Source: a virus
Reading direction: 5' to 3' (one strand)
Virus genome (UHGV): UHGV-0133287
DNA: 45,624 nt
Of the stretch, positions 4,631 to 39,787 are shown in pieces. The position numbers and the translations under genes are program-made. Position 1 is the first letter of the stretch; each line of letters starts with the position of its first letter. Under the pieces are notes generated by a model. It had not been told where the DNA came from. It made no database searches and saw only the letters and a program-made list of their open reading frames with translations.

Positions 4631-5632
4631 TTAATACCCATTAATTACTCTTCGGACATCAATCGAGGTGGTATAACCACTAGCCCCAATTGAATGCACA
4701 GCTTTCGATATAAGATATTTTCCAGAAAATGAACCGAATCCGTCCAGATTTATAGTTACACCAGCTACCAATCTGGTGTCTCCAACCAATACTAAAGATC
4801 CTGTATTTTGATATCTATTTTTAAGCCGCAAAGCAGCCTTTGCCTTACGTTTTGCTTCATCTAAATTAGCTACCAGTTTTCTTATCTTAAGATTCGCCCC
4901 TTCTTCTACGGATGGATCTACCCAAGTATACGAAAGCGACTTTCTTTTTTTAGGTACGCGATATTTGCACGTGCAACTTTTATACAAATCTGTAGATTGT
5001 GTGCTAAAGCTATATCTGATTATCTCATCAATACCTAACGTAAGCGTAGCGATAGGATCTTTTTGCTCAAACATCTCTTGAGCAAATATTATTAATTGGC
5101 TATCAGTGACCTTTAACGACAACCCTTCATCCTGGCATAGTCGATGGAGAAATTTTAAATCGCTTTCCTCCATTTGATCTTCACGCGCATAATATGGATT
5201 ACTATCACCATCAATAAGAAACAACAGTTCAAGGTTAGCTAATTTAGCTATAGAGGTTGCTATATCTTTAAGAGTTGTTTTTTCCCATGCATTACTTTTT
5301 AAATCACGTCTAATGCCTGATGAAACAGGAACAGAAACAGCAGTCACCTCAACAACAGAAGGTGATCCAGAGCAAGTTATGCCATCTACCTGGAATTTCC
5401 CGCACTCAAGGACGATTTGATTTATAGGCTTAAAGCTCAAATCAATAAAATCACCCTTTTTAGGTGTCCAGTCTCCAGACCATTTCCCATCATCATTTTT
5501 TAATATAATAGAAATATCATCGACCTGACCATCTTCATTATCTGTATAAGACATTGACAAAACATCAGGTGACATATGAGCGGTAATATTTACATTCTGA
5601 TATATAACATCAAAAAGCGTTTTACGTAACAC
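4631..5632 (-). CDS. tail protein, gpD-like (late control D family)
   Basis: 333-aa ORF between the X-like and V-like genes, the context of the D protein in P2/Mu-type tails. Confidence 0.45.
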   Translation of the reverse strand: MLRKTLFDVIYQNVNITAHMSPDVLSMSYTDNEDGQVDDISIILKNDDGKWSGDWTPKKGDFIDLSFKPINQIVLECGKFQVDGITCSGSPSVVEVTAVSVPVSSGIRRDLKSNAWEKTTLKDIATSIAKLANLELLFLIDGDSNPYYAREDQMEESDLKFLHRLCQDEGLSLKVTDSQLIIFAQEMFEQKDPIATLTLGIDEIIRYSFSTQSTDLYKSCTCKYRVPKKRKSLSYTWVDPSVEEGANLKIRKLVANLDEAKRKAKAALRLKNRYQNTGSLVLVGDTRLVAGVTINLDGFGSFSGKYLISKAVHSIGASGYTTSIDVRRVINGY

Positions 5633-5840
5633 TATTGCGTCTCCACGGAGGCAAATTGTTTACTGATATTGGCATAACCGGAGCATCAGGAACTTTAAGA
5701 ATAATTCCCGCAGAAAAAAGCACCGTAAAGCGGTGCTCAGTATTAGCATCAATAAGAAGATAAGACAGGTACTCATTACCATACAACTTTAACGCGATAC
5801 TATCCCATGAGTCCCCTTGAACCGTTCTATAATCATCCAA
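5622..5840 (-). CDS. tail protein X-like (LysM-like)
   Basis: 72-aa ORF immediately after the tape measure gene; N-terminus DDYRTVQGDSWDSIALKLYG is LysM-like, as in P2 gpX. Confidence 0.45.
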   Translation of the reverse strand: MDDYRTVQGDSWDSIALKLYGNEYLSYLLIDANTEHRFTVLFSAGIILKVPDAPVMPISVNNLPPWRRNSVT

Positions 5841-8625
5841 AACTTAATCTCCGTTGTTGGAACATATGAGCACTCAATTTCTTCTCAAAATCAGAATATC
5901 CCGCATCTAATGCTCTTTTAGCTGCCGCCTCAGTTTTCTTTGGTGAACCAGCCGGAAGATTGATTACAGGTGAATAGGTTATTCCACCAGTCACAGCATT
6001 AACGTTCTGGCGAGGTCCAGAAGTCCCGGCGGCAGATATCCCGTGAGGTGATAAATTTGATTGCCCGAACTTGGTTGCTATTGCATTCTGTAAGCTGTTA
6101 TTTCTGCTAACGCCTGATGCCAGAGTAGTCATTATTGCACCACCTGACTTTGTTAGCTGTGAGAATGGACCTTTTTTCGCGTCAGAGAACGGTAAATACT
6201 CACGTACAGAAGAAAAAACGCCTTTCACTTCATTAATTAAAGCATTTGCTTTTGATTTTATCCCAGTGATTAACGTCTCAATTATTTTTGCGCCTGACTC
6301 ACTCCAGTTTATTCCAGACAAATAAGCCGTTACAGATTGGAATGCTCTTATAAAGAGTCCAACTGGTGAAAAACGCATAAAAACAGATACCAGTGTATCT
6401 ATGATTTTCTTTCCTGTTTCGCTCCAGTTAATACCAGAAAGGTAATTTGTTGTAAGTTTAAATGCTTTAATTAAGAACGGAAGCGGAGACATCCATTTAA
6501 AAGCACTAATTAATGTACTGTAAATTCTTACTCCTGCCGAACTCCAGTTTATGTTGGAAAGATAATCCCATGCTTTACCAAACATAGATATAATCCATCC
6601 ATTGAGATCAAAGTTTAAGATAAAGTTTTTTATAGCTTCAAACGATTTAACTGTATATTCCTTAACAGAAGGCCAAACTCTGACAGCATAATCTCTGATC
6701 TTATCCCAGTTCTGATAGAGCAATATTCCTGCGGCAACCAGCGCAGATATAGCCATCTGAATCCACCCGAAGGGTGTTAGCTTTGTCGCTACAGATAAAG
6801 CCAGCATAGCTACCCTACACGCTATAACCACACTTTTCATGGTTAGAAACGCACCTGCCGCCATCACAATCTGAGACACAAAATTGGGGTTGTTAGCTAC
6901 AAATTCACTAATTTTTGTAATCAGCGGAACCAAAACACTAAGCGCGGCATTCAAAGCAGGTTGCAAGGCCTGACCAAAACTTAATGATGCATTGCTAGCC
7001 TGAATACGTAATTGTTTCAATCGCTCCGCATTGTCTTTCGTTATGTTGGCAAAATCGCGGTCAATAACAGCACTTCCAGCACCAAGAGATGTTGCTTTGA
7101 TTCTCTGGTATTCCTTCCAGTTTTGAATCATCGGACGAACAAAGTTCTGAACCTGCATATCGCCAAATAGCTCACCAAGTAACTTCTGATCTCCGTTCTT
7201 AGTCATTTTCATGACAGAATGCATTGCAGCTTCGAATGGATTCTTCCCTTTTTTCTGCGCTGTTGTGACAATTTTATATAAATCTACACCGAAATTTTTC
7301 TTTGCTTTTTTTAGTGTTTCAGGGGAAAGTATTTTCGCCAAAAAGTTGTTCATATTATTAGCAGCCTCATCCGAAGTTGCAGCACCTTTGCGAGCTATCT
7401 GCAAAGCTGCCCCCATCGTCGCGGCGGCTTCTTTACCTCCCATTTTTAATGCCTGGAACTGAGCACCAAGCACAGGAAGATTTTTGGCCATATCTTTAAA
7501 TTCAAAGTTTCCCTCTTTCCCTGCCTGAACCAGAATCCCCATTGCAGACTTCATTTGAGATGGATCAATCTTCAATGAGTCACTTAATGTAAATGATGCT
7601 TTCGAGACATCGAGGATATCAGAGCCAGTAGCTGTAGCTGTTCGCCCAATAGTTAGTAGATTCGCCTGAGCCTCTTTATAATCCTGCCCAGCAGCGACGA
7701 GAAAACCCTGAGCGGCCTGAATATCAGATGCAAACTGGTTGGTGGCCGTTCCGGTAACAAGCATCGCCTGCCCCATCGCCTGAACTTCTTCTGGCTTCAT
7801 ATCTGCCGTAAGACCAATCATTTTGTTTTCACGATTGAAATTTGCTGCATTGTTAGCAGCAGCAAATGCACCAGCCGCTACAGCACCAGTTTGTAATCCT
7901 GACCTTACAAGTTGACTCTTTGCCTCACCAAGATGCTCTCGCTTCAATTCACGCTGCCTTTCCAACGCGCGGTTTAACTCCTCCTGAGCACGTTTTACTG
8001 CAAGAACATTTTTCCGTGCTTCAGCCAACGCATTTTTATAGCTGTTAATTTTATCAATACGTTGTTTTTCTAATGCCCGGTTAAGTTCCTCCTGCTGTTT
8101 TTTCACTTGCTGAACATTTGCTCTGGCTAAAGCCAAAGCCGTTCTGTAGCGGTTAACCTGCTCAACGCTACGGACCTGAGCCTCACGATTACGATCAATG
8201 CTGGCTTTAAGCTCTTTCTCTCTTGAGGCCAAAGCTCTGGCAGATGTATCAGCTCCCTGATAGGCAGACTTTAAAGCGGCCAGTTCTTCACGCTGAGAAC
8301 GTAGTGATGCTCGTAAATTCGATGAATGTGTTTTTGCCTTCTCAAAGTCACGAAGCATCGCTCTGGTTGGATTGGCCGTGTTTTTTATTTGCTTCTGTAA
8401 CTCTTCAACGCGAGCGGCAGCTTTATGATATTCGAGGGCAGTCTGTCCAACCTTTACTTTTACAGATTGTAGCTTTTGAATTTCCCCATGTTCTTTCGTT
8501 AATCCAGCAAGCTCGGCATTTAATTTAGCAACAGCCTGATTAGCTGTAGTAAAACTTTTGGGGAGAGAGGCGGCAACTTTGCCGCCAATTTCAAAAGCCA
8601 GCTTAAAGTTCTTATTGCTGGCCAT
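5833..8625 (-). CDS. tail tape measure protein
   Basis: 930-aa ORF directly after the frameshifted chaperone pair; N-terminal half is Ala/Lys/Glu-rich coiled-coil-like with repeated segments, C-terminal half has hydrophobic stretches. Confidence 0.8.
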   Translation of the reverse strand: MASNKNFKLAFEIGGKVAASLPKSFTTANQAVAKLNAELAGLTKEHGEIQKLQSVKVKVGQTALEYHKAAARVEELQKQIKNTANPTRAMLRDFEKAKTHSSNLRASLRSQREELAALKSAYQGADTSARALASREKELKASIDRNREAQVRSVEQVNRYRTALALARANVQQVKKQQEELNRALEKQRIDKINSYKNALAEARKNVLAVKRAQEELNRALERQRELKREHLGEAKSQLVRSGLQTGAVAAGAFAAANNAANFNRENKMIGLTADMKPEEVQAMGQAMLVTGTATNQFASDIQAAQGFLVAAGQDYKEAQANLLTIGRTATATGSDILDVSKASFTLSDSLKIDPSQMKSAMGILVQAGKEGNFEFKDMAKNLPVLGAQFQALKMGGKEAAATMGAALQIARKGAATSDEAANNMNNFLAKILSPETLKKAKKNFGVDLYKIVTTAQKKGKNPFEAAMHSVMKMTKNGDQKLLGELFGDMQVQNFVRPMIQNWKEYQRIKATSLGAGSAVIDRDFANITKDNAERLKQLRIQASNASLSFGQALQPALNAALSVLVPLITKISEFVANNPNFVSQIVMAAGAFLTMKSVVIACRVAMLALSVATKLTPFGWIQMAISALVAAGILLYQNWDKIRDYAVRVWPSVKEYTVKSFEAIKNFILNFDLNGWIISMFGKAWDYLSNINWSSAGVRIYSTLISAFKWMSPLPFLIKAFKLTTNYLSGINWSETGKKIIDTLVSVFMRFSPVGLFIRAFQSVTAYLSGINWSESGAKIIETLITGIKSKANALINEVKGVFSSVREYLPFSDAKKGPFSQLTKSGGAIMTTLASGVSRNNSLQNAIATKFGQSNLSPHGISAAGTSGPRQNVNAVTGGITYSPVINLPAGSPKKTEAAAKRALDAGYSDFEKKLSAHMFQQRRLSFG

Positions 8626-8630
8626 TAGTA

Positions 8631-8813
8631 TTAATCCTCATTAAACACATCAATCCATGCGACGATTCGCCTCAACCGAAGCGAAAGCCAGTAGGATATA
8701 GGTGTTGATTGAGATGATTGAGATAGAGAACTCGCGGCCCTCATTATTTGCTTATCAATAGGTTTTTGCTCATCAAAACCTACGAGAGCAAAAAATTCTG
8801 TACCTTTTGACAA
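8631..8813 (-). CDS. tail assembly chaperone -1 frameshift extension (gpE+E'/GT-like)
   Basis: ORF in the -1 frame overlapping the 3' end of 8780-9061. After a -1 slip at TTTTTTG the reading continues FFALVGFDEQKP..., which matches this ORF's translation. Its own ATG is probably not used. Confidence 0.5.
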   Translation of the reverse strand: MSKGTEFFALVGFDEQKPIDKQIMRAASSLSQSSQSTPISYWLSLRLRRIVAWIDVFNED

Positions 8814-9061
8814 ACTTTAATAAAGTCTTTCGCTGGCAATCCATTCAGATACTCTATTGGACGGCCAATACAGCGAGCAGCCAAGGCTGCATGGACTTTA
8901 TTATCAAGTGATGTTTGAACTGAAACATGCCCTTGAGATTGCAGTAAGTCCGATACCTCTAAAATATCACTGCCTTTTAGGTTGTCTAAATCAAGGTTGA
9001 GTTCAGTCACCGGCTCAAAGTCTTCAAAACGATATTCTTTACTTAATTTAACGGTTTCCAT
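8780..9061 (-). CDS. tail assembly chaperone (gpE/G-like, frame-0 product)
   Basis: 93-aa ORF between the tail tube and tape measure genes; carries the T_TTT_TTG slippery heptamer (minus strand, 8789-8795) near its 3' end. Confidence 0.55.
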   Translation of the reverse strand: METVKLSKEYRFEDFEPVTELNLDLDNLKGSDILEVSDLLQSQGHVSVQTSLDNKVHAALAARCIGRPIEYLNGLPAKDFIKVCQKVQNFLLS

Positions 9062-9070
9062 TTTGTCACC

Positions 9071-9592
9071 TTATAAACCTAAATCATCACGAACGCTTTT
9101 TAATATATCTTCACCATCAAAGATACAAATAAAGTTCAACTTATCAATTTCCAAGACTTCTTTTCCATCAATAAATAATTTGATATAGAGAACTTCAAAT
9201 TCATTCTCTGAATCAGTAGCCTTTGCCACCTGTAGCGAACCTAAATCCAGTTTTTTAGGGTTTAGCTTCATTGAAGCCCGAATAGGAACCGTTTTATATT
9301 TTCCTGTTCCTGCATCATAAACCTGCTGGCTACCGCGAAAATCTACCTGATGCGATGAGGATAGAAATAATTTTGTACCAGCAGAGGTCAGAGTTCGCCA
9401 TTTAAGAGAGACAGTCATTGGTTTGAAATGCCCCAGCGTTCCGCTCTCAAGCTCTCCAGCGATACCTGCACCACTAACAGTTTCTGTCATCATCTCAATT
9501 GATGGCAGCTTTGCGTCAGCAACACCGATAATACGGTTTCCCTCACCGTATACTGTAAAGTTAATAAGTCTCTCAGGAATTTGATTGCTCAA
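9071..9592 (-). CDS. tail tube protein (FII-like)
   Basis: 173-aa ORF immediately downstream of the sheath gene; size and position typical of contractile-tail tube proteins. Confidence 0.65.
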   Translation of the reverse strand: MSNQIPERLINFTVYGEGNRIIGVADAKLPSIEMMTETVSGAGIAGELESGTLGHFKPMTVSLKWRTLTSAGTKLFLSSSHQVDFRGSQQVYDAGTGKYKTVPIRASMKLNPKKLDLGSLQVAKATDSENEFEVLYIKLFIDGKEVLEIDKLNFICIFDGEDILKSVRDDLGL

Positions 9593-9608: not shown

Positions 9609-11072
9609 TTATTCAGAAAACAAGTTCAGCAGATAATCAGGATTATATTCCATGACGAACTCTATATCTCTGGCAGGTGAGAATGGTGTCATTTTTACAT
9701 GGAATTTAACAATCCCGTCCATCAATGACGTAATCGTGTTTTCAGACTGATCAAAGGTAACAACACCACCTGCAATATCCTGATTACCTGTGAGGCCGTT
9801 AAGCCAAATATTCGCACTTGTAACAATCGATTCAATTAATCGTCGGTTTGCAGGATTGTCTATTTTTGACCAATGCGAAAGAATTAACGTATTACCCACC
9901 CAGTTAAACATACGTCGGCAAACACGAAATGCGTCTTTGGGGTCTGTAGATGTTGGATAAATAGCATTACGATTTCCCCATGATTTCCAACCATCAAAAT
10001 TAAGGCTTGTTACAATCCCCTGTCCATTTAAGTAGTTTGCCTGGCTAATGTTAAGCCATACTTCACTGCCATCTTTACGTACAGCACCGTCCATCTGTAG
10101 TTTTATATTTGACGGAGAACGTGATGGAATATCACCATACTGACTATCCAGCAAGCATGTTGCGGCCGCTAAATGGGTTGAGTGATGGTAAATATTGTCA
10201 CCAAGTTTCACCATCGGCCAGCACACTGTCTGGTTAGCGGCCATGTGATTATTGTTCTGTTTCCATTCAGGAACAGCCGAGTAATCACTGATAGTAGATT
10301 TATCGGTCGGTGCATCAGTTATGGCTTCTGCTTTGAACAATTCACTAATCAACGCGGCTTTAGCCGCCATTAGCTGACCAACTTCACTATCAGAACTAAA
10401 TCCAGGCGCAATCACTTGTCCAGGAACCAACTTGAAGCGGGGATACACATCAGACAGTAACTCAAGCCCTGTATTGGCTTTAGTGTTGGAATCCACACCA
10501 CCGATAATGTCATTTTTAGTTACGGCACCGGGATCAAGATGCGTATAACTAACCTTAAGAGTAGCGTCTTTTTCGGTAATTTTTCCTCCGCTAATAGCGG
10601 TAATGACCGTATAGCCATTATCATCCAGCGCCAGCACATAATCGGTATCAACCGTTAATCCTGCCGAATCACCATCTGCTTTTTTCACAACAACAGATTT
10701 ATATAAGACACCATCGTTAGAGAGCGTACCTTTCCCGCCAGAAAGTTTTACTACCTCATCAGTTACGTCTTTCTTATGCTTTGCTGGATCAAGCACATTA
10801 ATAAATACAACTGGCGCAACACCATATATTCCAAATGCGACTTTAATTACTTCGCTTAAAGTATATTTCTCGAAGTTTGTGCTATATCCTATTTTAGATA
10901 CGGCCTCTGCGTATGTATAAGCAATGATAGGTTTATTTACCGCTGAGGCTGGATCTTCTAACTGATTAACAGGAGCTGTACCAAATGCGACAATCAACCC
11001 AGCACTAACTTGTACTGGAGGAGTTATAGATGTAGCCAGCTCAGATATATAAATACCGTGGCGATATCCCAT
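9609..11072 (-). CDS. tail sheath protein (FI-like)
   Basis: 487-aa ORF opening MGYRHGIYISE..., a characteristic sheath N-terminus; followed by the tube gene. Confidence 0.8.
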   Translation of the reverse strand: MGYRHGIYISELATSITPPVQVSAGLIVAFGTAPVNQLEDPASAVNKPIIAYTYAEAVSKIGYSTNFEKYTLSEVIKVAFGIYGVAPVVFINVLDPAKHKKDVTDEVVKLSGGKGTLSNDGVLYKSVVVKKADGDSAGLTVDTDYVLALDDNGYTVITAISGGKITEKDATLKVSYTHLDPGAVTKNDIIGGVDSNTKANTGLELLSDVYPRFKLVPGQVIAPGFSSDSEVGQLMAAKAALISELFKAEAITDAPTDKSTISDYSAVPEWKQNNNHMAANQTVCWPMVKLGDNIYHHSTHLAAATCLLDSQYGDIPSRSPSNIKLQMDGAVRKDGSEVWLNISQANYLNGQGIVTSLNFDGWKSWGNRNAIYPTSTDPKDAFRVCRRMFNWVGNTLILSHWSKIDNPANRRLIESIVTSANIWLNGLTGNQDIAGGVVTFDQSENTITSLMDGIVKFHVKMTPFSPARDIEFVMEYNPDYLLNLFSE

Positions 11073-11848: not shown

Positions 11849-12189
11849 ATCGGCATTCCTCTGTTAGTATTAACAGTGAGAGTTATTTCCAATACACCAA
11901 CATTATCTGATACTTCATCAACAATATAATTTTTACCGTTGATTTTCATTGACTGGTCTTTGACAGGGATAACAGGAAAATCTTTTCTTGAAACAAATAA
12001 TATTATTTGTCCCTGATTTATTCCCTCTGCAAACTCAGCATATGAGCGTTTATTACGCTCATGAATAAGGTCTGTATCAATAACGGCAAGGATATCCTTG
12101 CCGTCTATGTTATATGTATCGGCAAACTCTTTTTCATTGAGGAATATTGCAGAAATATCTTGCGCTATAACCTCTTTGAAGGAGTTCAT
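11845..12189 (-). CDS. hypothetical head completion protein
   Basis: 114-aa ORF with 4-bp overlaps to both neighbours in the connector region. Confidence 0.3.
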   Translation of the reverse strand: MNSFKEVIAQDISAIFLNEKEFADTYNIDGKDILAVIDTDLIHERNKRSYAEFAEGINQGQIILFVSRKDFPVIPVKDQSMKINGKNYIVDEVSDNVGVLEITLTVNTNRGMPI

Positions 12190-12581
12190 TACTTCTTATT
12201 ACCTTTTTTTTGCGTTGATTTTTTCGCATTACTGGTATCAGAAGTAGCTACAGATTCAGATGAATCATCAGCAACCATTTCCTCATTGCCGCCATCATCC
12301 TCAAACTCAACCTCGAATACACAGCTACCCGCCTCCGTTCGCGTAATCAACCCCGCGTCCACAGCATCATTAACAGCAGATGCGTATCCGTGCTCAAAAG
12401 CTAACTTAGCAGCATCATAGCCCCCAGCCGATGCCAAATCACCATCCTCTTCGGTGGCAATAGCATGTCCTGACGCAATCAGTTCGGCAATTCTGGAGTT
12501 ATCCATTAGCCCATTAAGCAAACGGCCCGCTTTTAGCGAGCCGTGGCTTATCGTATCGATGTTTTTAACCAGTCTGGCCAT
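12189..12581 (-). CDS. hypothetical protein with acidic C-terminus
   Basis: 130-aa ORF directly after the major capsid gene; C-terminus is Asp/Glu/Ser-rich then Lys-rich. Confidence 0.3.
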   Translation of the reverse strand: MARLVKNIDTISHGSLKAGRLLNGLMDNSRIAELIASGHAIATEEDGDLASAGGYDAAKLAFEHGYASAVNDAVDAGLITRTEAGSCVFEVEFEDDGGNEEMVADDSSESVATSDTSNAKKSTQKKGNKK

Positions 12582-13625
12582 TTAAACCACCTTAGCCACC
12601 AGATAGGCGTCAGCCACGCCAGGATTAGGCAGTGGAGACGACTTCATGGCAACATAACGACCTCCCGGCTTACGAGATACCCAAGTATCTGGAACTCGTG
12701 GTGACTCAACAATCGTCAGAGTCTTTTCAGCTTCATCTACAAGCTCTACAGCACCATACAACATAGTTCCCCGCCCCGGAGAGCCAAGGAGAATCTTATC
12801 CTCCGGCACTAATGGTTCTGGTTTTCCTGTTTTATCACTAAGAATAAGTTCGTCGTAACCATAAAAATCGAGCCCCTCAATATTACCATAATGAGTAACT
12901 CCTTCTTCTAAGTCCTCTGGCTTAATATACCCAAACTCTTTTCGACGATTATCAAGATATTTAGTTACTGCTTCATTTTTAACGAATGCATCAACAACTT
13001 TTGCACCCATTACAGCAGTACGAGGTGTAAAACCTGATGTTAGTGATACCCGGCGCTTCCAGTTGCGGATATTGACCAACGGATCTGATTTTGCGGCACT
13101 CCATAAATCATCACCTGTCAGTTCAAGGTATGGTTTATCACCTTCCTCTTCAGGCCAAAAATAAACTGTGTCATCTACTCCTTCACCAACAATATCAACC
13201 TGTCCCGTAAACAAGACCTGTGCACACATCCATTCTTCACGGCGGTTAACCATTTCATCAAGCTCAAGCAAATCTTTACCTAATTGCTCGGCGGCTCGTT
13301 CTGCTGGCGATTTTGCGTTGTAAATATTCTCACCCGGAAGCCTGTTTAAAAGCAGTTCGGCTGTTGTTACCAAATCAGGTGCAACAAGTGGTGGCTCCAG
13401 AGTTCTCGTTACAAAGCCGCGTCGCTCAACGGTTTTTGAGCCAAAACCTTTACCAACAAACGGAGCCATAGTACGGCCACCGCGAACAAAATCCAGATCA
13501 ACTTTCTTTGTATTAAAGGTCTGAACACCAGGGAAAAAGGTACGAAGAAGAAAACGACGAGCCTTGAAATTCTGAATAACAGGCTCAAGCATTGTACGTC
13601 GTTCAAAAATATCAATATTCGGCAT
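12582..13625 (-). CDS. major capsid protein (lambda gpE-like)
   Basis: 347-aa ORF opening MPNIDIFERRTMLEPVIQNF..., preceded by decoration-like and protease genes in lambda-type order. Confidence 0.75.
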   Translation of the reverse strand: MPNIDIFERRTMLEPVIQNFKARRFLLRTFFPGVQTFNTKKVDLDFVRGGRTMAPFVGKGFGSKTVERRGFVTRTLEPPLVAPDLVTTAELLLNRLPGENIYNAKSPAERAAEQLGKDLLELDEMVNRREEWMCAQVLFTGQVDIVGEGVDDTVYFWPEEEGDKPYLELTGDDLWSAAKSDPLVNIRNWKRRVSLTSGFTPRTAVMGAKVVDAFVKNEAVTKYLDNRRKEFGYIKPEDLEEGVTHYGNIEGLDFYGYDELILSDKTGKPEPLVPEDKILLGSPGRGTMLYGAVELVDEAEKTLTIVESPRVPDTWVSRKPGGRYVAMKSSPLPNPGVADAYLVAKVV

Positions 13626-14038: not shown

Positions 14039-15127
14039 TTAATTTTTATCGCGGTTTTTAAATACTGACCCAATAACATTTTTTACTGCTTCAGCCTGTT
14101 TGTTGCCGTTGTTTTCTGGTTGATTAACATCAACTGAATCATTCACCTCACTTGCGTCTTCTTGCCGTTGATTAAGAAAGTTTTTGTTACGCGCTCGCTC
14201 TGCATTCATAATTTCCAAAGCAAGTTCAGCCGCAGAAACTCCTGTTTTGAATTTTGCATTCTTAACCAGGTCGTCATGACCAGGAATCACGCTATTCTCG
14301 ATTGTTTCAATGCGCTCGCGTTCTGATTTAACGCCCTCGTCTTTACCAGCATTAAAAACCTGATTGTATAATTCTGGATATTTATTTTTTAATTCATCAA
14401 GAGTCACAATATCGTCCTCATTTTGTTCATTTGATTCAGTAGATAACTCATTTTTATTTTGCGGCAACTTTGCGAGTGAATCAGGTAATTTTGAAAACCT
14501 TGATGCTTCAAAAGTTATTCCATTAAGCGAAAGCATCCCTTCCTTTATAGAAGCGGATAAGCGCATTGGTTTTTCAACTTCGTCAGCAAATCCAAGCTCT
14601 ACAGCCTCTTCTGCATTTAGCCATGTTTCCTGATCCATTAGTTCAATTAATTTATCCTCAGAAAGCCCTGTTTTCTCCTTATATGCAGATAAAATACTAT
14701 TGCGTATCTTATCCATCATCTCAGCAATATCACGCAATTCATCCGCATCGCCAGCAGCAAATGTCCACGGATTATGGATCATCATCATAGCATTAGATGG
14801 GATAATAATTTTATCACCCGCCATTGCAATAATAGTTGCAGCCGATGCAGCAATCCCGTCGATATAAATCGTAATATTCGCCTTATGACGCTTTAATGAT
14901 GAAAGAATAGCTTGAGCAGTAAAAACAGACCCACCATAACTATTAATTTTTACGTTGATAGTATTTGATGAAATATCCTTTAATTTATTAACTATGTCAG
15001 AAGAAGAAACCTCATCAAATTCACCAATATACCCGTAAATTAAAAGTTCAGCCGGAGAGTCATCTTCACCCGTGCTATTTTTTATTTCCCACCAATTAGG
15101 CATCATCAGTCTCCATATTTTGTTCAT
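14039..15127 (-). CDS. prohead protease (ClpP/S49 family) with scaffold-like C-terminus
   Basis: 362-aa ORF with a ClpP-like core (INSYGGSVFTAQAIL...IDGIAASAATIIAMAGD) and a charged C-terminal half; sits between portal and capsid genes. Confidence 0.7.
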   Translation of the reverse strand: MNKIWRLMMPNWWEIKNSTGEDDSPAELLIYGYIGEFDEVSSSDIVNKLKDISSNTINVKINSYGGSVFTAQAILSSLKRHKANITIYIDGIAASAATIIAMAGDKIIIPSNAMMMIHNPWTFAAGDADELRDIAEMMDKIRNSILSAYKEKTGLSEDKLIELMDQETWLNAEEAVELGFADEVEKPMRLSASIKEGMLSLNGITFEASRFSKLPDSLAKLPQNKNELSTESNEQNEDDIVTLDELKNKYPELYNQVFNAGKDEGVKSERERIETIENSVIPGHDDLVKNAKFKTGVSAAELALEIMNAERARNKNFLNQRQEDASEVNDSVDVNQPENNGNKQAEAVKNVIGSVFKNRDKN

Positions 15128-19340: not shown

Positions 19341-19921
19341 CCATTAGCAAGATACTGAACAAATCCCTCATGCGTTTCATGCGCGTCGTGGTACTGACGA
19401 TAAACATCCAGCAACAATGCAATTTCCATATCCGTCGCGGGAATACGTTCTTTATCAATAGCCAGGTACTTAATTTGAACAACAGGGGAAGAATTATCGT
19501 CTTCTTCCTGCGGCTGTTCATCGCTTAACATTTCGTCAAGCTCTGCATCATTAAACCCAAGCAGATCAATATCAAAATCATCATCCATTAACGCTTTGAC
19601 TTCTTCGGCCAGAAGCTGCATATCCCAGCCAGCATTTAAGGCCAGCTTGTTATCTGCAATCCTGTAAGCCTTCTTCTGTTTTTCAGAAAGGTTACTCAAC
19701 CGAATCGCTGGAACTTTATCCATTTCCAGAATTTCGGCTGCTGCAAGCCGCCCATGCCCCGCAATCAGTTCATTCTTTTCATCGATCAGCACAGGATTAG
19801 TGAAACCGAACTCACGGATACTGTTCACCAACTGTTCAACTTGCTCATCTGAATGAGTCCGTGAATTTTTGGCGTATCTGAGCAGCTTACCGACTGGTAA
19901 ATATTCGATTTTTAGAGCCAT
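19331..19921 (-). CDS. ParB-like nuclease domain protein (paralog A)
   Basis: 196-aa ORF with the ParB/Srx motif IAGHGRLAAA; overlaps the terminase small subunit start by 10 bp. Confidence 0.65.
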   Translation of the reverse strand: MALKIEYLPVGKLLRYAKNSRTHSDEQVEQLVNSIREFGFTNPVLIDEKNELIAGHGRLAAAEILEMDKVPAIRLSNLSEKQKKAYRIADNKLALNAGWDMQLLAEEVKALMDDDFDIDLLGFNDAELDEMLSDEQPQEEDDNSSPVVQIKYLAIDKERIPATDMEIALLLDVYRQYHDAHETHEGFVQYLANGCK

Positions 19922-25960: not shown

Positions 25961-26267
25961 GTTAATTGTGCCTCCGGCGCTTATCTCCGGCAGTCATAAC
26001 GCTGGCCAGCTCTACAGCAAACACAACGAAAAGGGCACTAACCAGACTGATTAATGCCCTTGCCTGTTGTGTGCCGGATATCGCCCGACAACGCTGTTTT
26101 GGTAACACGGCTACAGTTCCGTGCCGCTCCAGCTTTTACCCCTTTGCGGATAACAGGCCCTGCCTGTAACTTAGCCCCACGTTCGCCCGAAATGCGCACT
26201 AGGCACGCATAAAGATGAGCACGAAGAAGTAACTCCACCGCGCTTATCTTTATGTGTGAGAGTGAAT

Positions 26268-26343
26268 TGGTGGCCCCTACCGGATTTGAACCGATGACCG
26301 TGCGATTATGAGTCGCCTGCTCTAACCACTGAGCTAAGGGGCC
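26268..26343 (-). tRNA. tRNA with CAU anticodon (Met or lysidine-type Ile2)
   Basis: 76-nt minus-strand sequence GGCCCCTTAGCTCAGTGGTTAGAGCAGGCGACTCATAATCGCACGGTCATCGGTTCAAATCCGGTAGGGGCCACCA folds by hand into a cloverleaf: 7-bp acceptor stem, GCTC/GAGC D-stem, CUCAUAA anticodon loop, TTCAAAT T-loop, encoded CCA. The 5' half resembles E. coli ileX as I recall it. Confidence 0.8.
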
Positions 26344-26512
26344 ATATTTGATTTGTTTGTCTGGTGTGGCGCCGCGCACGAAAATCCCAGCCAATAAATT
26401 CAGGATTTTTGGGCGCGGCGGCATATCAGACAAACATGGTTGATGCGTGCGCCCATGAGAAAAGCGCATAGAATGTTGTAACTATATATTTATATAATTA
26501 TAGAAATATATA

Positions 26513-37562: not shown

Positions 37563-37586
37563 ATAAAAAAGGCCCCCGAAGGGGCC
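37563..37586 (-). terminator. intrinsic terminator (minus-strand; convergent transcription stop)
   Basis: GGCCCC-CGAA-GGGGCC hairpin preceded on the plus strand by an A run, giving a U run on the minus strand. Confidence 0.45.
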
Positions 37587-38456
37587 TAATCGCTACTTGC
37601 TGCTAATGTTTATCGTCACATTCAGAGCGTTATCAGTAATCTTCCAACCCTCCCCATGTGGCGTAAACAAAGCTCCAGTAACAACGATAAAAATACACAT
37701 ACAGTATTTTTTCATTGTGTGGCCCTTACAGGCCGTTTCACGGCATCTCCACCGACGAAAATGACGCGAGAGCAAGCACTCCGCTTGTGCTTGCGTGTAC
37801 GGCAAGTGGATGATCCTTTCCTTAAAGTCGGTGCCCGGGTGCGAATCGGCGAAAAGGCCCCAAGCCATATTACACGTCCTCGCCTTCATAATGAAGGAAT
37901 AACAATTGCTTTTATTACATGTAATTACATCCGAAGAAGTTAAAAAACTTCATTCTGCATGAACTAAGGAACTAAATTTCTTTATATGAATAGTGGACTA
38001 TTCACCTCAGTTGAGTAAGAATAGATACGCCGCTTGTGCTTGCGTGGTTGTTTACACAACGACGTTATGCTGAAAGGACCGCGAATCCGATCAGCACGAA
38101 AGAACCGTCCTCAATAGGGCGGTTTTTTTGTTTCTGCCTACCAATAAACCCACGCTATGTGGTTGTCTCTGTTAAAATCCCGCCGTATTGACATGAATGC
38201 GCCATTGGTGGACACTTTCCGAGCCGTAGCAAAATCTACGGTCGGGATTGGCGTCCCGATTGCACAATGGCGCATACCGCGTTAGCGGTTTTTTTATGCG
38301 TAAAGCACTGCTACACCCGAATTATGGTGGGGCGTGCGGGGGCGGAGAAATCCGCGCCGGTTTGTCATTGTGCCGGTTACGCCAACCCTGTACGTCTCAC
38401 CACCATATTGATTGGCGTCATTGGTGGTGATAGTTCCTTTAATCGGAGATATCACA

Positions 38457-38648
38457 ATGACAAACCTACCCCATGACTATTACGTCAACCTCGTAAAGAT
38501 CCTTCTCAAGAAAGCCTCATATGCCGATAAATTCCGCCTGGCTGAAATCATCGAGCGCGAAGCTATGCGCATCGCCAGCAACGATAACGCTGTTTCTGAC
38601 GCAAAAATCTCCCTCGTAACCAAAGTAGTTATGGGAGGTGCAAAATGA
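38457..38648 (+). CDS. small ORF translationally coupled to antirepressor (icd-like position)
   Basis: 63-aa ORF (ATG 38457, GGAG RBS) whose stop overlaps the start of the next gene (ATGA); the ORF track shows a longer version starting 38412. Confidence 0.35.
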   Translation: MTNLPHDYYVNLVKILLKKASYADKFRLAEIIEREAMRIASNDNAVSDAKISLVTKVVMGGAK

Positions 38649-39787
38649 AAACGCTTCCGACCGTTAACACCCTACAGCCTATCCTGCATAACCAGATCCC
38701 CGTTATCACTAGTGAACTTCTGGCGCAGTTATACGGAACAAAAATCAAAAACATTTCTGATAACTTTCTGAACAACACGACGCGATTCGTAGCCGGAAAG
38801 CATTACTTTAAAATTGAAAAAAACGAATTACGCGAGTTCAAGAACAGACCCGAAACAATCGGGTTAGTTGGTAAAAATGCCCGCTCCCTAATTCTCTGGA
38901 CCGAACGCGGGGCTGCACGTCACGCTAAAATGCTCGAAACCGATCAGGCGTGGGATGTATTCGAACGGCTGGAAGACTGCTATTTCAGCCAGAACGCGCA
39001 AACGGCCGCGACCGTAACCGTCTCGCCAAACAATGCTCGTGAGGTTGTCGATACGCTCAACGCCAAACCGATGTTTTACATTAAGGTGTGCAATAACGAG
39101 CCACTCACAACCTCAGCCGATGTTGCCCAGGCATTCAGCACCACAAACAATTCCATCGTTATGGCCATCGATGCGTTACGCATTCCTCGCACAGCTGCGG
39201 CGCGTCATTTCTTTAAAGAGCAACGACCGTTGGAAGGAAGCGACCGCGAAATAACAATCTATCGCATGACAAAAGACGGATTTACCTTGCTCATGGAGAG
39301 CATCGACGGTCCCGGCGTGAAAGATATCAAGCTGGCCTACATTGAAGCCTTTAACGCTATCAGCAGCGTGTTAAAAACACAGTACGAGCGCGATCTGGCT
39401 AAACGACTGTACCAGGAAAAAACGATTATCCGCGCGGCAACAGAGCATAATCGGCTATTAACGGAACCGAACTACAGGAAGGAACTAATCAAGGAGTTTG
39501 ACAAGGCAACAGGGAAAACCAAAGCGGCGCTAAATCTGCCAGCAATGACTCAGGAAAATGTGATATCAGCCTTACTTCTTGATCTACTCAGAAACGCCAG
39601 AGCACTTATCAGCTTTGACGAAAACCTGAATCCTCAACTCAAGCTACTACCACCGACAGGCAAAGTAGTCGACCAGGCTGATCACAACAGCATACTCAGC
39701 GTACTGGATGCAAACCTGCCAACCAGGACACTACAGGATCTGATAAAAACATGTGCTGATAAGCTGGCACAGAAAAGCAGACCATAA
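38645..39787 (+). CDS. putative antirepressor / phage regulatory protein
   Basis: 380-aa ORF whose N-terminal ~110 aa (ITSELLAQLYG...GAARHAKMLETDQAWDVFERLEDCYF) resembles anti-repressor N-domains; preceded by an about 700-bp structured leader. Confidence 0.45.
   Translation: MKTLPTVNTLQPILHNQIPVITSELLAQLYGTKIKNISDNFLNNTTRFVAGKHYFKIEKNELREFKNRPETIGLVGKNARSLILWTERGAARHAKMLETDQAWDVFERLEDCYFSQNAQTAATVTVSPNNAREVVDTLNAKPMFYIKVCNNEPLTTSADVAQAFSTTNNSIVMAIDALRIPRTAAARHFFKEQRPLEGSDREITIYRMTKDGFTLLMESIDGPGVKDIKLAYIEAFNAISSVLKTQYERDLAKRLYQEKTIIRAATEHNRLLTEPNYRKELIKEFDKATGKTKAALNLPAMTQENVISALLLDLLRNARALISFDENLNPQLKLLPPTGKVVDQADHNSILSVLDANLPTRTLQDLIKTCADKLAQKSRP

What the first reader, a model, noticed from the sequence alone, without database searches (positions are those of the whole stretch)
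8780..8813. Programmed -1 frameshift site in the tail assembly chaperone
The 93-aa chaperone ORF ends ...CAG AAT TTT TTG CTC TCG TAG. The heptamer T_TTT_TTG (minus strand, 8789-8795) is a canonical slippery site, and the -1 frame continues for about 45 codons to 8631, giving the fusion product expected of gpE/E' or G/GT-type chaperones.
Basis: partly seen in the sequence, partly recalled or inferred. Interest (0 to 1): 0.45.

Follow-up and report, generated by a model that had tools for sequence, protein, structure and literature searches.

The report
Phage tail chaperone frameshift site
This is an ordinary programmed -1 ribosomal frameshift site of the phage P2 E/E+E' type. It lets a phage-plasmid make a short and a long tail-assembly chaperone from one start codon. 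It is real and deeply conserved, but public records of this element do not annotate it.

Summary
On the minus strand a 93-aa ORF (9061..8780) lies between the tail tube gene and the tape-measure gene. It ends ...AAT TTT TTG CTC TCG TAG. The heptamer T_TTT_TTG (8795..8789) is in the X_XXY_YYZ phase. The -1 frame stays open for 52 codons from the shift site (49 past the stop) to TAA at 8633..8631, 5 nt before the tape-measure ATG.

The heptamer alone is not rarer than chance (18 in the window, about 20 expected). Context carries the evidence:
- The same heptamer, in the same phase, occurs in 17 of 18 lineages compared. These include relatives down to 31-46% identity and P2 itself. One lineage has T_TTT_TTC.
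- Every intact locus has a 52-59 aa -1 extension that ends at the tape-measure start.
- The extension shows a clear coding signature in the -1 frame only.
- No start codon is conserved for it.

P2 uses the same heptamer to make gpE (91 aa) and gpE+E' (142 aa). Here the products would be 93 and 143 aa.

Corrections: classical tandem slippage predicts the junction ...VQNFLALVG..., not ...NFFALVG.... A 9-bp hairpin starts 5 nt downstream but is poorly conserved.

Verdict: a new, unannotated member of a well-known kind; low interest.

The parts
8780..9061 (-). Zero-frame tail assembly chaperone ORF (93 aa; analogue of P2 gpE and lambda gpG)
   Evidence: ORF and translation. phrog_3140 'tail assembly chaperone' at 2e-42. 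PF10109 at 23 bits over profile positions 1-78 of 79. PGAP names it 'phage tail assembly protein' in RefSeq plasmids.
8789..8795 (-). Slippery heptamer T_TTT_TTG, with zero-frame codons AAT TTT TTG
   Evidence: In-phase TTTTTTG in 17 of 18 lineages compared, P2 included; TTTTTTC in Faecalibacterium phage Epona. The first T is always present although it is the third base of codons for N, S, R or G.
8631..8789 (-). -1 frame extension (52 codons plus TAA; analogue of P2 E' and the lambda T segment). The fusion CDS is complement(join(8631..8789, 8789..9061)), 143 aa.
   Evidence: phrog_30074 at 1.7e-31, and the fusion matches phrog_3140 over residues 1-137. Frame-specific purifying selection: differences per codon position 0.25/0.14/0.43; synonymous fraction 0.47 against 0.135 and 0.043 in the other frames; 0 stops against 28 and 47.
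8758..8783 (-). Candidate stimulatory hairpin: 9-bp stem GUAGGUUUU/AAAACCUAU with an 8-nt loop, starting 5 nt after the heptamer. Its 5' arm contains the zero-frame UAG.
   Evidence: Minimum free energy -9.5 kcal/mol, z = -3.05, 1 of 200 shuffles as good. Only a GGG/CCC core is kept in 69-76% identical relatives, and that core coincides with conserved Gly and Pro codons. Status: possible, not established.
9071..9592 (-). Upstream neighbour: tail tube gene (context)
   Evidence: PF04985 Phage_tube at 3.5e-44.
5833..8625 (-). Downstream neighbour: tape-measure gene. Its ATG lies 5 nt after the stop of the -1 extension (context).
   Evidence: PF10145 at 1e-20 and phrog_28 at 1.5e-106. Junction sequence.

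Best explanation
The site is a programmed -1 ribosomal frameshift in the tail assembly chaperone gene of a myovirus-type phage-plasmid.

Most ribosomes read the 93-codon ORF to its TAG and make the short chaperone. A minority slip back one nucleotide. This happens when tRNA-Phe (UUU) is in the P site and tRNA-Leu (UUG) is in the A site on U_UUU_UUG. Those ribosomes then read GCU CUC GUA GGU... for 52 more codons. The result is a 143-aa protein with the same N-terminal 91 residues and a new C-terminal domain, ending just before the tape-measure start codon.

By analogy with lambda gpG/gpGT and P2 gpE/gpE+E', the shared N-terminal part would bind the tape-measure protein and the extension would recruit the tube subunit. 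The fixed low ratio of long to short product would be set by the slip frequency.

Shown here:
- the sequence anatomy;
- conservation of the heptamer and its phase;
- that the -1 extension is protein-coding and has no conserved start.

Inferred:
- that slippage is ribosomal;
- its frequency;
- the protein functions.
For: - Anatomy.
- Gene order sheath-tube-chaperone-tape measure-X-D with family assignments.
- Heptamer invariant and in phase in enterobacterial lineages at 69-95% identity (L010-L012, L035-L040).
- Same heptamer in a Cloacibacillus MAG (39% identity).
- Same heptamer in Vibrio, Pararheinheimera, Paenibacillus and Acinetobacter phages (31-46% identity), and in P2.
- Flanking codons vary while the heptamer does not.
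- The -1 extension of 52-59 aa ends at, overlaps, or lies within about 10 nt of the tape-measure start in every intact locus compared.
- Coding signature only in the -1 frame, including the 12 codons between the zero-frame stop and the first Met.
- No start codon in the -1 frame upstream of the heptamer in L012, L004 or P2, and the Met is not conserved in the wider family.
- The fusion scores higher against phrog_3140 than the ORF alone (161.5 against 146.5 bits), aligned over residues 1-137.
- P2 precedent: TTTTTTG, 91-aa E and 142-aa E+E' (PMC3091744; GenBank features).
- The X29 homologue is annotated as a joined CDS.
- Within-window null: this is the only one of 118 long open frames with such an arrangement.
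Against: - There is no experimental evidence for this locus.
- In E. coli reporter assays U_UUU_UUG is not listed among the efficient heptamers or among the 18 motifs selected for more than 0.10% shifting without stimulators. UUG is a 'heterogeneous' A-site codon, and those shift less than UUY (PMC4066793).
- The window lacks an upstream SD-like stimulator by that paper's criteria. It has AAGGTA, whereas many relatives have AGGTG, GAGG or GGNGG.
- The downstream hairpin is weak (-9.5 kcal/mol) and poorly conserved.
- The extension does not match Pfam PF06528, the P2 E' segment.
- Similarity of the fusion to P2 E+E' is not significant (BLASTP E = 6.3; hhalign E = 0.034, probability 1.5%).
Confidence: 0.9

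Rival explanations
1. Transcriptional slippage: RNA polymerase adds one extra U while copying the T6 run, so a fraction of mRNAs carry the extension in frame. The protein would be the same, with junction ...NFFALVG....
For: The site is a homopolymeric T6 run, and the -1 product is what a +1-nt mRNA would encode. The tools used here cannot separate the two mechanisms.
Against: The run is exactly 6 T in all 18 lineages and never longer. From my own knowledge, efficient bacterial transcriptional slippage usually needs runs of about 8-9 or more. The X_XXY_YYZ phase is strictly kept, with T forced at a synonymous third position. P2's site is described as a translational frameshift.
Confidence: 0.04
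2. The downstream ORF is a separate small gene translated from its own start. Candidates are TTG at 8813 (60 aa) and ATG at 8744 (37 aa). In that case no recoding occurs.
For: the ORF listing reports a 60-aa TTG-started ORF at 8631..8813. Annotators of Vibrio phage R20L, phage KLER1-1 and phage Lily called the equivalent ORF as a separate CDS. phrog_30074 is a family of such calls. A Met is conserved among the enterobacterial lineages.
Against: No SD-like sequence precedes either candidate start. L012, L004 and P2 have no ATG, GTG or TTG in the -1 frame upstream of the heptamer. The Met is replaced by Arg or Cys in the more distant relatives. The -1-frame coding signature already holds in codons 5-16, upstream of the Met (0.35/0.24/0.57 differences per codon position). 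Independent initiation would also not explain the invariance of the heptamer.
Confidence: 0.04
3. Chance: a fortuitous T-run and a fortuitously open non-coding spacer between two genes.
For: TTTTTTG is as common in the window as in shuffles (18 against about 20). The window is AT-rich in places.
Against: The heptamer, its phase, the extension length and the extension sequence are conserved across phyla. The substitution pattern is frame-specific. The arrangement is unique among 118 long frames in the window.
Confidence: 0.02

Closest known systems
Bacteriophage P2 gpE / gpE+E' (FETUD tail operon; Christie et al. 2002; Xu, Hendrix & Duda 2004)
   Same: - Identical heptamer T_TTT_TTG in the same phase.
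- Same position between tube (FII) and tape measure (T).
- Nearly identical product sizes: 91 and 142 aa against 93 and 143 aa.
- The extension ends at the tape-measure start.
- Both N-terminal parts align over the full length of Pfam PF10109.

   Different: - No significant pairwise or profile similarity to P2 E+E'.
- The extension does not hit PF06528.
- The zero-frame stop is 2 codons after the heptamer here and 6 in P2.
- The extension stops 5 nt before the tape-measure ATG here and overlaps it in P2.
- The gene after the tape measure is a tail-X (LysM-like) gene rather than U.
Vibrio phage X29 tail assembly chaperone pair (RefSeq NC_024369.2, joined CDS annotated 'lambda gpGT analog')
   Same: True homologue (45% identity over the chaperone). 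Same heptamer and phase, a 54-aa extension beyond the zero-frame stop with the shared TP(I/L)xYW(L/M) motif, and the same gene order.
   Different: Different host and phage. The X29 frameshift is annotated, whereas the window's near-identical records are not.
Phage lambda gpG / gpGT
   Same: Same logic: a -1 frameshift near the end of the chaperone gene, located between the major tail gene and the tape-measure gene. It gives a minor long product needed in a fixed ratio (PMC5009743).
   Different: From my own knowledge, lambda is a siphovirus, uses the heptamer G_GGA_AAG, and has no sequence similarity to this protein. The lambda ratio is about 30:1; the ratio here is unknown.
E. coli dnaX and IS911/IS3 -1 frameshift signals
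   Same: Tandem slippage on an X_XXY_YYZ heptamer. [quoted passage not shown]
   Different: Those sites use A_AAA_AAG with strong stimulators (an SD plus a stable hairpin or pseudoknot). Here the heptamer is a weaker type and only a weak, AU-rich, lineage-specific hairpin is seen.

Membership tests
Frameshifted tail assembly chaperone pair (G/GT class of Xu, Hendrix & Duda 2004) | Located between the major tail or tube gene and the tape-measure gene | tested here: met
   Tube 9071-9592 (PF04985), chaperone 8780-9061, tape measure 5833-8625 (PF10145).
Frameshifted tail assembly chaperone pair (G/GT class of Xu, Hendrix & Duda 2004) | A second ORF overlaps the 3' end of the first in the -1 frame, is protein-coding, and has no start of its own | tested here: met
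   -1 frame open 8816..8631. Frame-specific coding signature. No conserved start codon or SD.
Frameshifted tail assembly chaperone pair (G/GT class of Xu, Hendrix & Duda 2004) | In-phase slippery heptamer X_XXY_YYZ within the overlap, conserved among relatives | tested here: met
   T_TTT_TTG at 8795..8789. Conserved in phase in 17 of 18 lineages, with T_TTT_TTC in one.
Frameshifted tail assembly chaperone pair (G/GT class of Xu, Hendrix & Duda 2004) | The fusion protein is actually produced and is required for tail assembly | not testable with these tools
   This needs mass spectrometry, a western blot, a reporter, or genetics. It is shown for P2 and lambda only (Christie 2002 could not be read).
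Pfam PF10109 Phage_TAC_7 (P2 E, Mu gp41, gp14) | Score at or above the gathering threshold (25 bits) | tested here: inconclusive
   The window protein scores 23.0 bits, E = 8.2e-5, aligned to profile positions 1-78 of 79, just below the cut-off. All 12 family members scanned match at E <= 0.01, best 1e-7. Precomputed PF10109 hits exist for several close homologues. P2 gpE scores 47.8 bits.
Pfam PF06528 Phage_P2_GpE (the E' segment of P2-like phages) | The extension matches the family profile | tested here: not met
   No hit for the window, L012 or L004 extensions even at E <= 10. The P2 extension hits at 2.1e-22. The extension is therefore a functional analogue, not a demonstrated homologue, of P2 E'.
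PHROG phrog_3140 (tail assembly chaperone) and phrog_30074 | Significant profile match | tested here: met
   ORF at 2e-42, fusion at 5.6e-47 over residues 1-137, extension against phrog_30074 at 1.7e-31.
-1 PRF signals with a downstream RNA stimulator | A stable, conserved stem-loop or pseudoknot 5-9 nt after the heptamer | tested here: inconclusive
   The window has a 9-bp hairpin after a 5-nt spacer (-9.5 kcal/mol, z = -3.05). The consensus structure among relatives is only 3 bp, with one covarying pair. 75% of cells are paired, against 36-56% in slid controls, but the structure was derived from the window itself. P2 and its relatives are reported to lack such a structure.

The most novel reading that the evidence does not exclude
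U_UUU_UUG is an intrinsically modest heptamer, yet it is kept unchanged from Proteobacteria phages to Firmicutes and Synergistota elements. It comes with a conserved upstream [KR]-V-x-x-F-L coding context and a stop codon 2-6 codons downstream. In that context the Lys or Arg codon is always AAG or AGG, which gives an SD-like AGG(U/G)G in 11 of 18 lineages.

This could reflect a family-specific stimulatory mode that has not been characterised. Candidates are an unusually short-spaced anti-SD interaction, a nascent-peptide effect, or a stop-proximal hairpin. Such a mode, rather than the classical downstream structure, might set the short:long ratio.
Probability: 0.1. Interest if true: 0.4.

Novelty: new member of a known kind. 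Interest (0 to 1): 0.12.

Why it matters
The main value is correct annotation. The 143-aa frameshift product is missing from every near-identical public record checked: Yersinia phage vB_YpM_39, Escherichia phage vB_EcoM-613R2, and RefSeq plasmid pATCC25922_1. By analogy with P2 E+E' and lambda gpGT, this product is probably an essential tail-assembly protein.

The element is a roughly 48-kb plasmid-borne myovirus present in 71 of 5426 complete E. coli genomes, including the reference strain ATCC 25922. Those records leave a 154-nt 'intergenic' gap that is in fact coding.

The result also adds a well-sampled family in which the P2-type heptamer is conserved across very distant hosts. That family could serve as a comparative set for studying how a weak heptamer is tuned. 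It does not change what is understood about frameshifting.

Tried and rejected
- Heptamer frequency as evidence: rejected, because TTTTTTG is not over- or under-represented in the window.
- Direct homology to P2 E+E': BLASTP and hhalign of a 12-member family profile against P2 are not significant. Only the shared PF10109 match links the N-terminal parts.
- PF06528 for the extension: no hit.
- NCBIfam: no model matches the window chaperone, its fusion or P2 E+E'.
- PDB sequence search with the family profile: only noise.
- Database proteins containing the fusion: none among the 13 hits. P0008 (116 aa) is a frame-shifted call that runs part-way into the extension, and P0013 (83 aa) is also frame-shifted.
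- Long-range fold of the 99 nt downstream: not better than shuffles (z = -1.30).
- Conserved RNA structure: only a 3-bp core plus a distal 5-bp helix without covariation.
- When the heptamer is included, an alternative fold pairs the U-run with the downstream A-run (-10.9 kcal/mol). I did not pursue it.
- L011 looked like a counter-example, with only a 13-codon extension beyond the stop. It is a truncated element whose tail module is replaced by a Rep-like gene about 40 nt after the chaperone stop.
- L031, L032 and L005 are broken or marginal matches and were not used.
- Christie et al. 2002 (PMC135442) is not held. The roughly 10% frequency and the essentiality of E' are therefore quoted from memory only.
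- Assigning the element to the pSLy3 phage-plasmid group: rejected, because that group is SSU5-related.

Full report
**Observation**

On the minus strand the window carries a contractile-tail module:
- major capsid gene, 12582-13625;
- sheath, 9609-11072 (phrog_23);
- tube, 9071-9592 (PF04985, 3.5e-44);
- a 93-aa ORF, 8780-9061;
- a 154-nt stretch with no called gene;
- tape measure, 5833-8625 (PF10145, phrog_28);
- tail protein X, 5622-5840;
- gpD-like hub protein, 4631-5632.

The 93-aa ORF ends CAG AAT TTT TTG CTC TCG TAG. TTTTTTG therefore lies at 8795..8789 in the phase T_TTT_TTG. The -1 frame is open from 8816 to the TAA at 8633..8631. That is 52 codons from the shift point, 49 beyond the zero-frame stop, and it ends 5 nt before the tape-measure ATG at 8625. 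'About 45 codons' is a slight underestimate.

**Is it more than chance?**

The heptamer itself is not rare. It occurs 18 times in the window against 19.95 +/- 4.5 in dinucleotide shuffles. The arrangement is what stands out. Of 118 stop-to-stop frames of at least 90 codons in the window, 7 have an in-phase XXXYYYZ in their last 30 codons. Only this one is followed by a -1 extension of more than 6 codons.

**What the ORF is**

- The 93-aa protein matches phrog_3140 'tail assembly chaperone' at 2e-42.
- It aligns end to end with Pfam PF10109 (Phage_TAC_7: 'E, or 41 or 14') at 23.0 bits, just under the 25-bit cut-off.
- The conceptual fusion scores higher on phrog_3140 (161.5 against 146.5 bits) and aligns over residues 1-137. 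Some members of that PHROG therefore include the extension.
- The extension alone matches phrog_30074 at 1.7e-31, a family of the same ORF called as a separate small gene.

**Where the element occurs**

The DNA is 98-99.9% identical to:
- Yersinia phages vB_YpM_39, 41 and 44;
- Escherichia phages vB_EcoM-613R2 and 473R2;
- roughly 48-kb plasmids in 71 of 5426 complete E. coli genomes, including pATCC25922_1. Every match lies on a plasmid.

The element is therefore a phage-plasmid. In all three annotated records inspected the chaperone is a plain 93-aa CDS and the gap to the tape-measure gene is empty.

**Comparative evidence**

I collected relatives from four sources:
- IMG/VR;
- GTDB genomes;
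- the contigs encoding six protein hits;
- GenBank phages by tblastn.

In the enterobacterial lineages with 69-95% identical chaperones (L010, L011, L012 group, L035-L040), TTTTTTG is invariant and in the same phase. The surrounding codons vary: CAG AAT, CAG AGT, CAA AGT or CAA CGT upstream, and CTC TCG, CTG GCG, CTA GCG, CTG GGC or TTG TCG downstream.

The same in-phase heptamer is present in more distant relatives:
- a Cloacibacillus MAG at 39% identity;
- Vibrio phages X29 and R20L;
- Pararheinheimera phage KLER1-1;
- Paenibacillus phage Lily;
- Acinetobacter phage HFM1 (31-46% identity).

Faecalibacterium phage Epona has T_TTT_TTC.

The codon before TTT always ends in T, although it encodes Asn, Ser, Arg or Gly. 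That is what a heptamer requirement predicts.

Every intact locus has a 52-59 aa -1 extension. In every case it ends at, overlaps, or lies within about 10 nt of the tape-measure start. The extensions share a motif, TP(I/L)xYW(L/M).

**Coding signature of the extension**

I built a codon-threaded alignment of eight enterobacterial lineages.

| Measure | -1 frame | Other two frames |
|---|---|---|
| Pairwise differences per codon position | 0.25 / 0.14 / 0.43 | not computed |
| Differing codon pairs that are synonymous | 47% | 13.5% and 4.3% |
| Stop codons | 0 | 28 and 47 |

The signature already holds in codons 5-16, before the first Met of the extension (0.35/0.24/0.57).

In the -1 frame upstream of the heptamer, L012, L004 and P2 have no ATG, GTG or TTG at all. 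The Met at 8744 is not conserved in the wider family. Neither candidate start in the window has an SD.

The extension is therefore a real coding region. The only expression route common to all relatives is a -1 shift from the chaperone frame.

The one apparent counter-example is L011, with 13 codons beyond the stop. It is a truncated element whose tail module is replaced by a Rep-like gene about 40 nt after the chaperone stop.

**Comparison with P2**

GenBank AF063097 annotates:
- gpE (19430..19705, 91 aa);
- gpE+E' (a joined CDS, 142 aa);
- a 'site of -1 translational frameshift'.

The P2 sequence there is GGT TTT TTG, the same heptamer in the same phase. PMC3091744 states that the P2 frameshift occurs at TTTTTTG, gives the 91-aa and 142-aa products, and reports no downstream hairpin in P2 or its Burkholderia relatives. 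It cites Christie et al. 2002 and Xu et al. 2004.

I could not open Christie et al. 2002. From memory, it showed that E' is essential and that the shift frequency is about 10%.

The window's products (93 and 143 aa) and gene order mirror P2. Membership in the P2 E/E' sequence families is only partial:
- P2 gpE hits PF10109 at 47.8 bits.
- The window hits it at 23 bits.
- All 12 family members scanned hit it at E <= 0.01.
- The extension does not hit PF06528, which the P2 extension hits at 2e-22.
- Direct comparisons with P2 E+E' are not significant (BLASTP E = 6.3; hhalign E = 0.034). Both alignments nevertheless put the two shift sites in register.

The closest annotated homologue is the Vibrio phage X29 pair, which RefSeq describes as 'lambda gpG analog' and 'lambda gpGT analog' with a joined CDS.

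**Mechanism and stimulators**

Under classical tandem slippage, tRNA-Phe and tRNA-Leu occupy UUU and UUG and then re-pair on UUU UUU. The next codon read is GCU. Both peptides should be searched for.

In systematic E. coli reporter assays, UUN codons with a purine third base shift less than UUY. U_UU.U_UU.G is not listed among the efficient E. coli motifs, nor among the 18 under-represented motifs with more than 0.10% shifting without stimulators (PMC4066793).

[quoted passage not shown] By those criteria 11 of 18 lineages, including P2, have such an element at 6-9 nt. The window, with AAGGTA, does not.

Downstream, the window has a 9-bp AU-rich hairpin. GUAGGUUUU pairs with AAAACCUAU (8783-8758). 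It starts 5 nt after the heptamer and contains the zero-frame UAG. Its energy is -9.5 kcal/mol, with z = -3.05 and 1 of 200 shuffles as good.

Among 69-76% identical relatives only a GGG/CCC core persists. That core coincides with conserved Gly and Pro codons of the extension. Pair counts (75% paired against 36-56% in slid controls) are biased by the structure's origin in this very sequence. I treat the hairpin as possible but unproven. The wider 99-nt region folds no better than shuffles.

**Rivals**

- Transcriptional slippage on T6 would give the same frame. It is disfavoured by the short, never-extended run and by the strict codon phase.
- Independent initiation is disfavoured by the absence of a conserved start or SD and by the coding signature that reaches the heptamer.
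- Chance is excluded by conservation.

I put about 0.9 on programmed -1 ribosomal frameshifting that yields a 143-aa fusion. The remaining uncertainty is that nothing has been measured at this locus.

**Function (inferred)**

In lambda, gpG and the G part of gpGT bind the tape-measure protein. The T part recruits the major tail protein, and the ratio is critical (PMC5009743). The same logic is expected here, with the tube protein as the recruited subunit.

**Verdict**

It is a textbook class of recoding site. What is new is a missing annotation in a common E. coli phage-plasmid, together with a clean comparative data set. Novelty: new member of a known kind. Interest: low.

Noticed in passing
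window 8626-8779 and the equivalent stretch in L001, L002, L003: All near-identical public records leave the 154-nt chaperone-to-tape-measure gap unannotated, although it is coding in the -1 frame. These are Yersinia phage vB_YpM_39, Escherichia phage vB_EcoM-613R2 and RefSeq pATCC25922_1. More distant phages (R20L, KLER1-1, Lily) call it as a separate small ORF.
   Followed up: yes
window 8796-8806 (minus) and the equivalent in L004, L011, L012, L034-L044: [quoted passage not shown] The window has only AAGGTA. At that codon every Lys is AAG, and Arg is AGG in L012 and Lily but CGC/CGT in Epona and HFM1. This hints at an mRNA-level constraint, confounded with the conserved K/R-V residues.
   Followed up: partly
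window 8755-8795 (minus): When the heptamer is included in the fold, the U-run itself can pair with the downstream A-run (UUUUUGCUC...GAGCAAAAA, -10.9 kcal/mol, z = -3.1). This competes with the downstream hairpin for the same A-run.
   Followed up: no
window 26268-26343 (minus): A tRNA-Met (anticodon CAT) gene, found by ARAGORN and Rfam, lies inside a mechanically listed 143-aa ORF (26038-26469), which is therefore probably spurious.
   Followed up: no
window 37565-37862 (minus); 38223-38295 and 38320-38407 (plus): Rfam gathering-level matches to ryfA (135 bits), isrK (67 bits) and C4 antisense RNA (75 bits). The last two lie just upstream of a 380-aa ORF at 38645-39787. This resembles the P1/P7-type antisense-controlled antirepressor cassette.
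   Followed up: no
L011 2780-3951: A 73%-identical relative is a truncated element. The tail module breaks about 40 nt after the chaperone stop and is followed by a 277-aa ORF that looks Rep-like by eye (not run against any family library). The -1 extension is cut to 13 codons beyond the stop.
   Followed up: partly
L034 2683-2690 (P2, AF063097 19682-19689): The GenBank join for P2 E+E' (19430..19685, 19685..19857) re-reads the base after the heptamer and gives ...GFLFAELG.... The tandem-slippage model gives ...GFLVAELG.... This is an annotation convention that changes one residue.
   Followed up: partly
window 12189-12581 (minus) and 14039-15127 (minus): Two other genes end with in-phase A_AAA_AAA and A_AAA_AAT heptamers, but the -1 frame closes before the zero-frame stop. 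No extended product is possible.
   Followed up: yes
proteins P0008 and P0013: Two database homologues of the chaperone (116 and 83 aa) are frame-shifted gene calls. One runs part-way into the extension frame. The likely cause is sequencing or assembly indels in those records.
   Followed up: no
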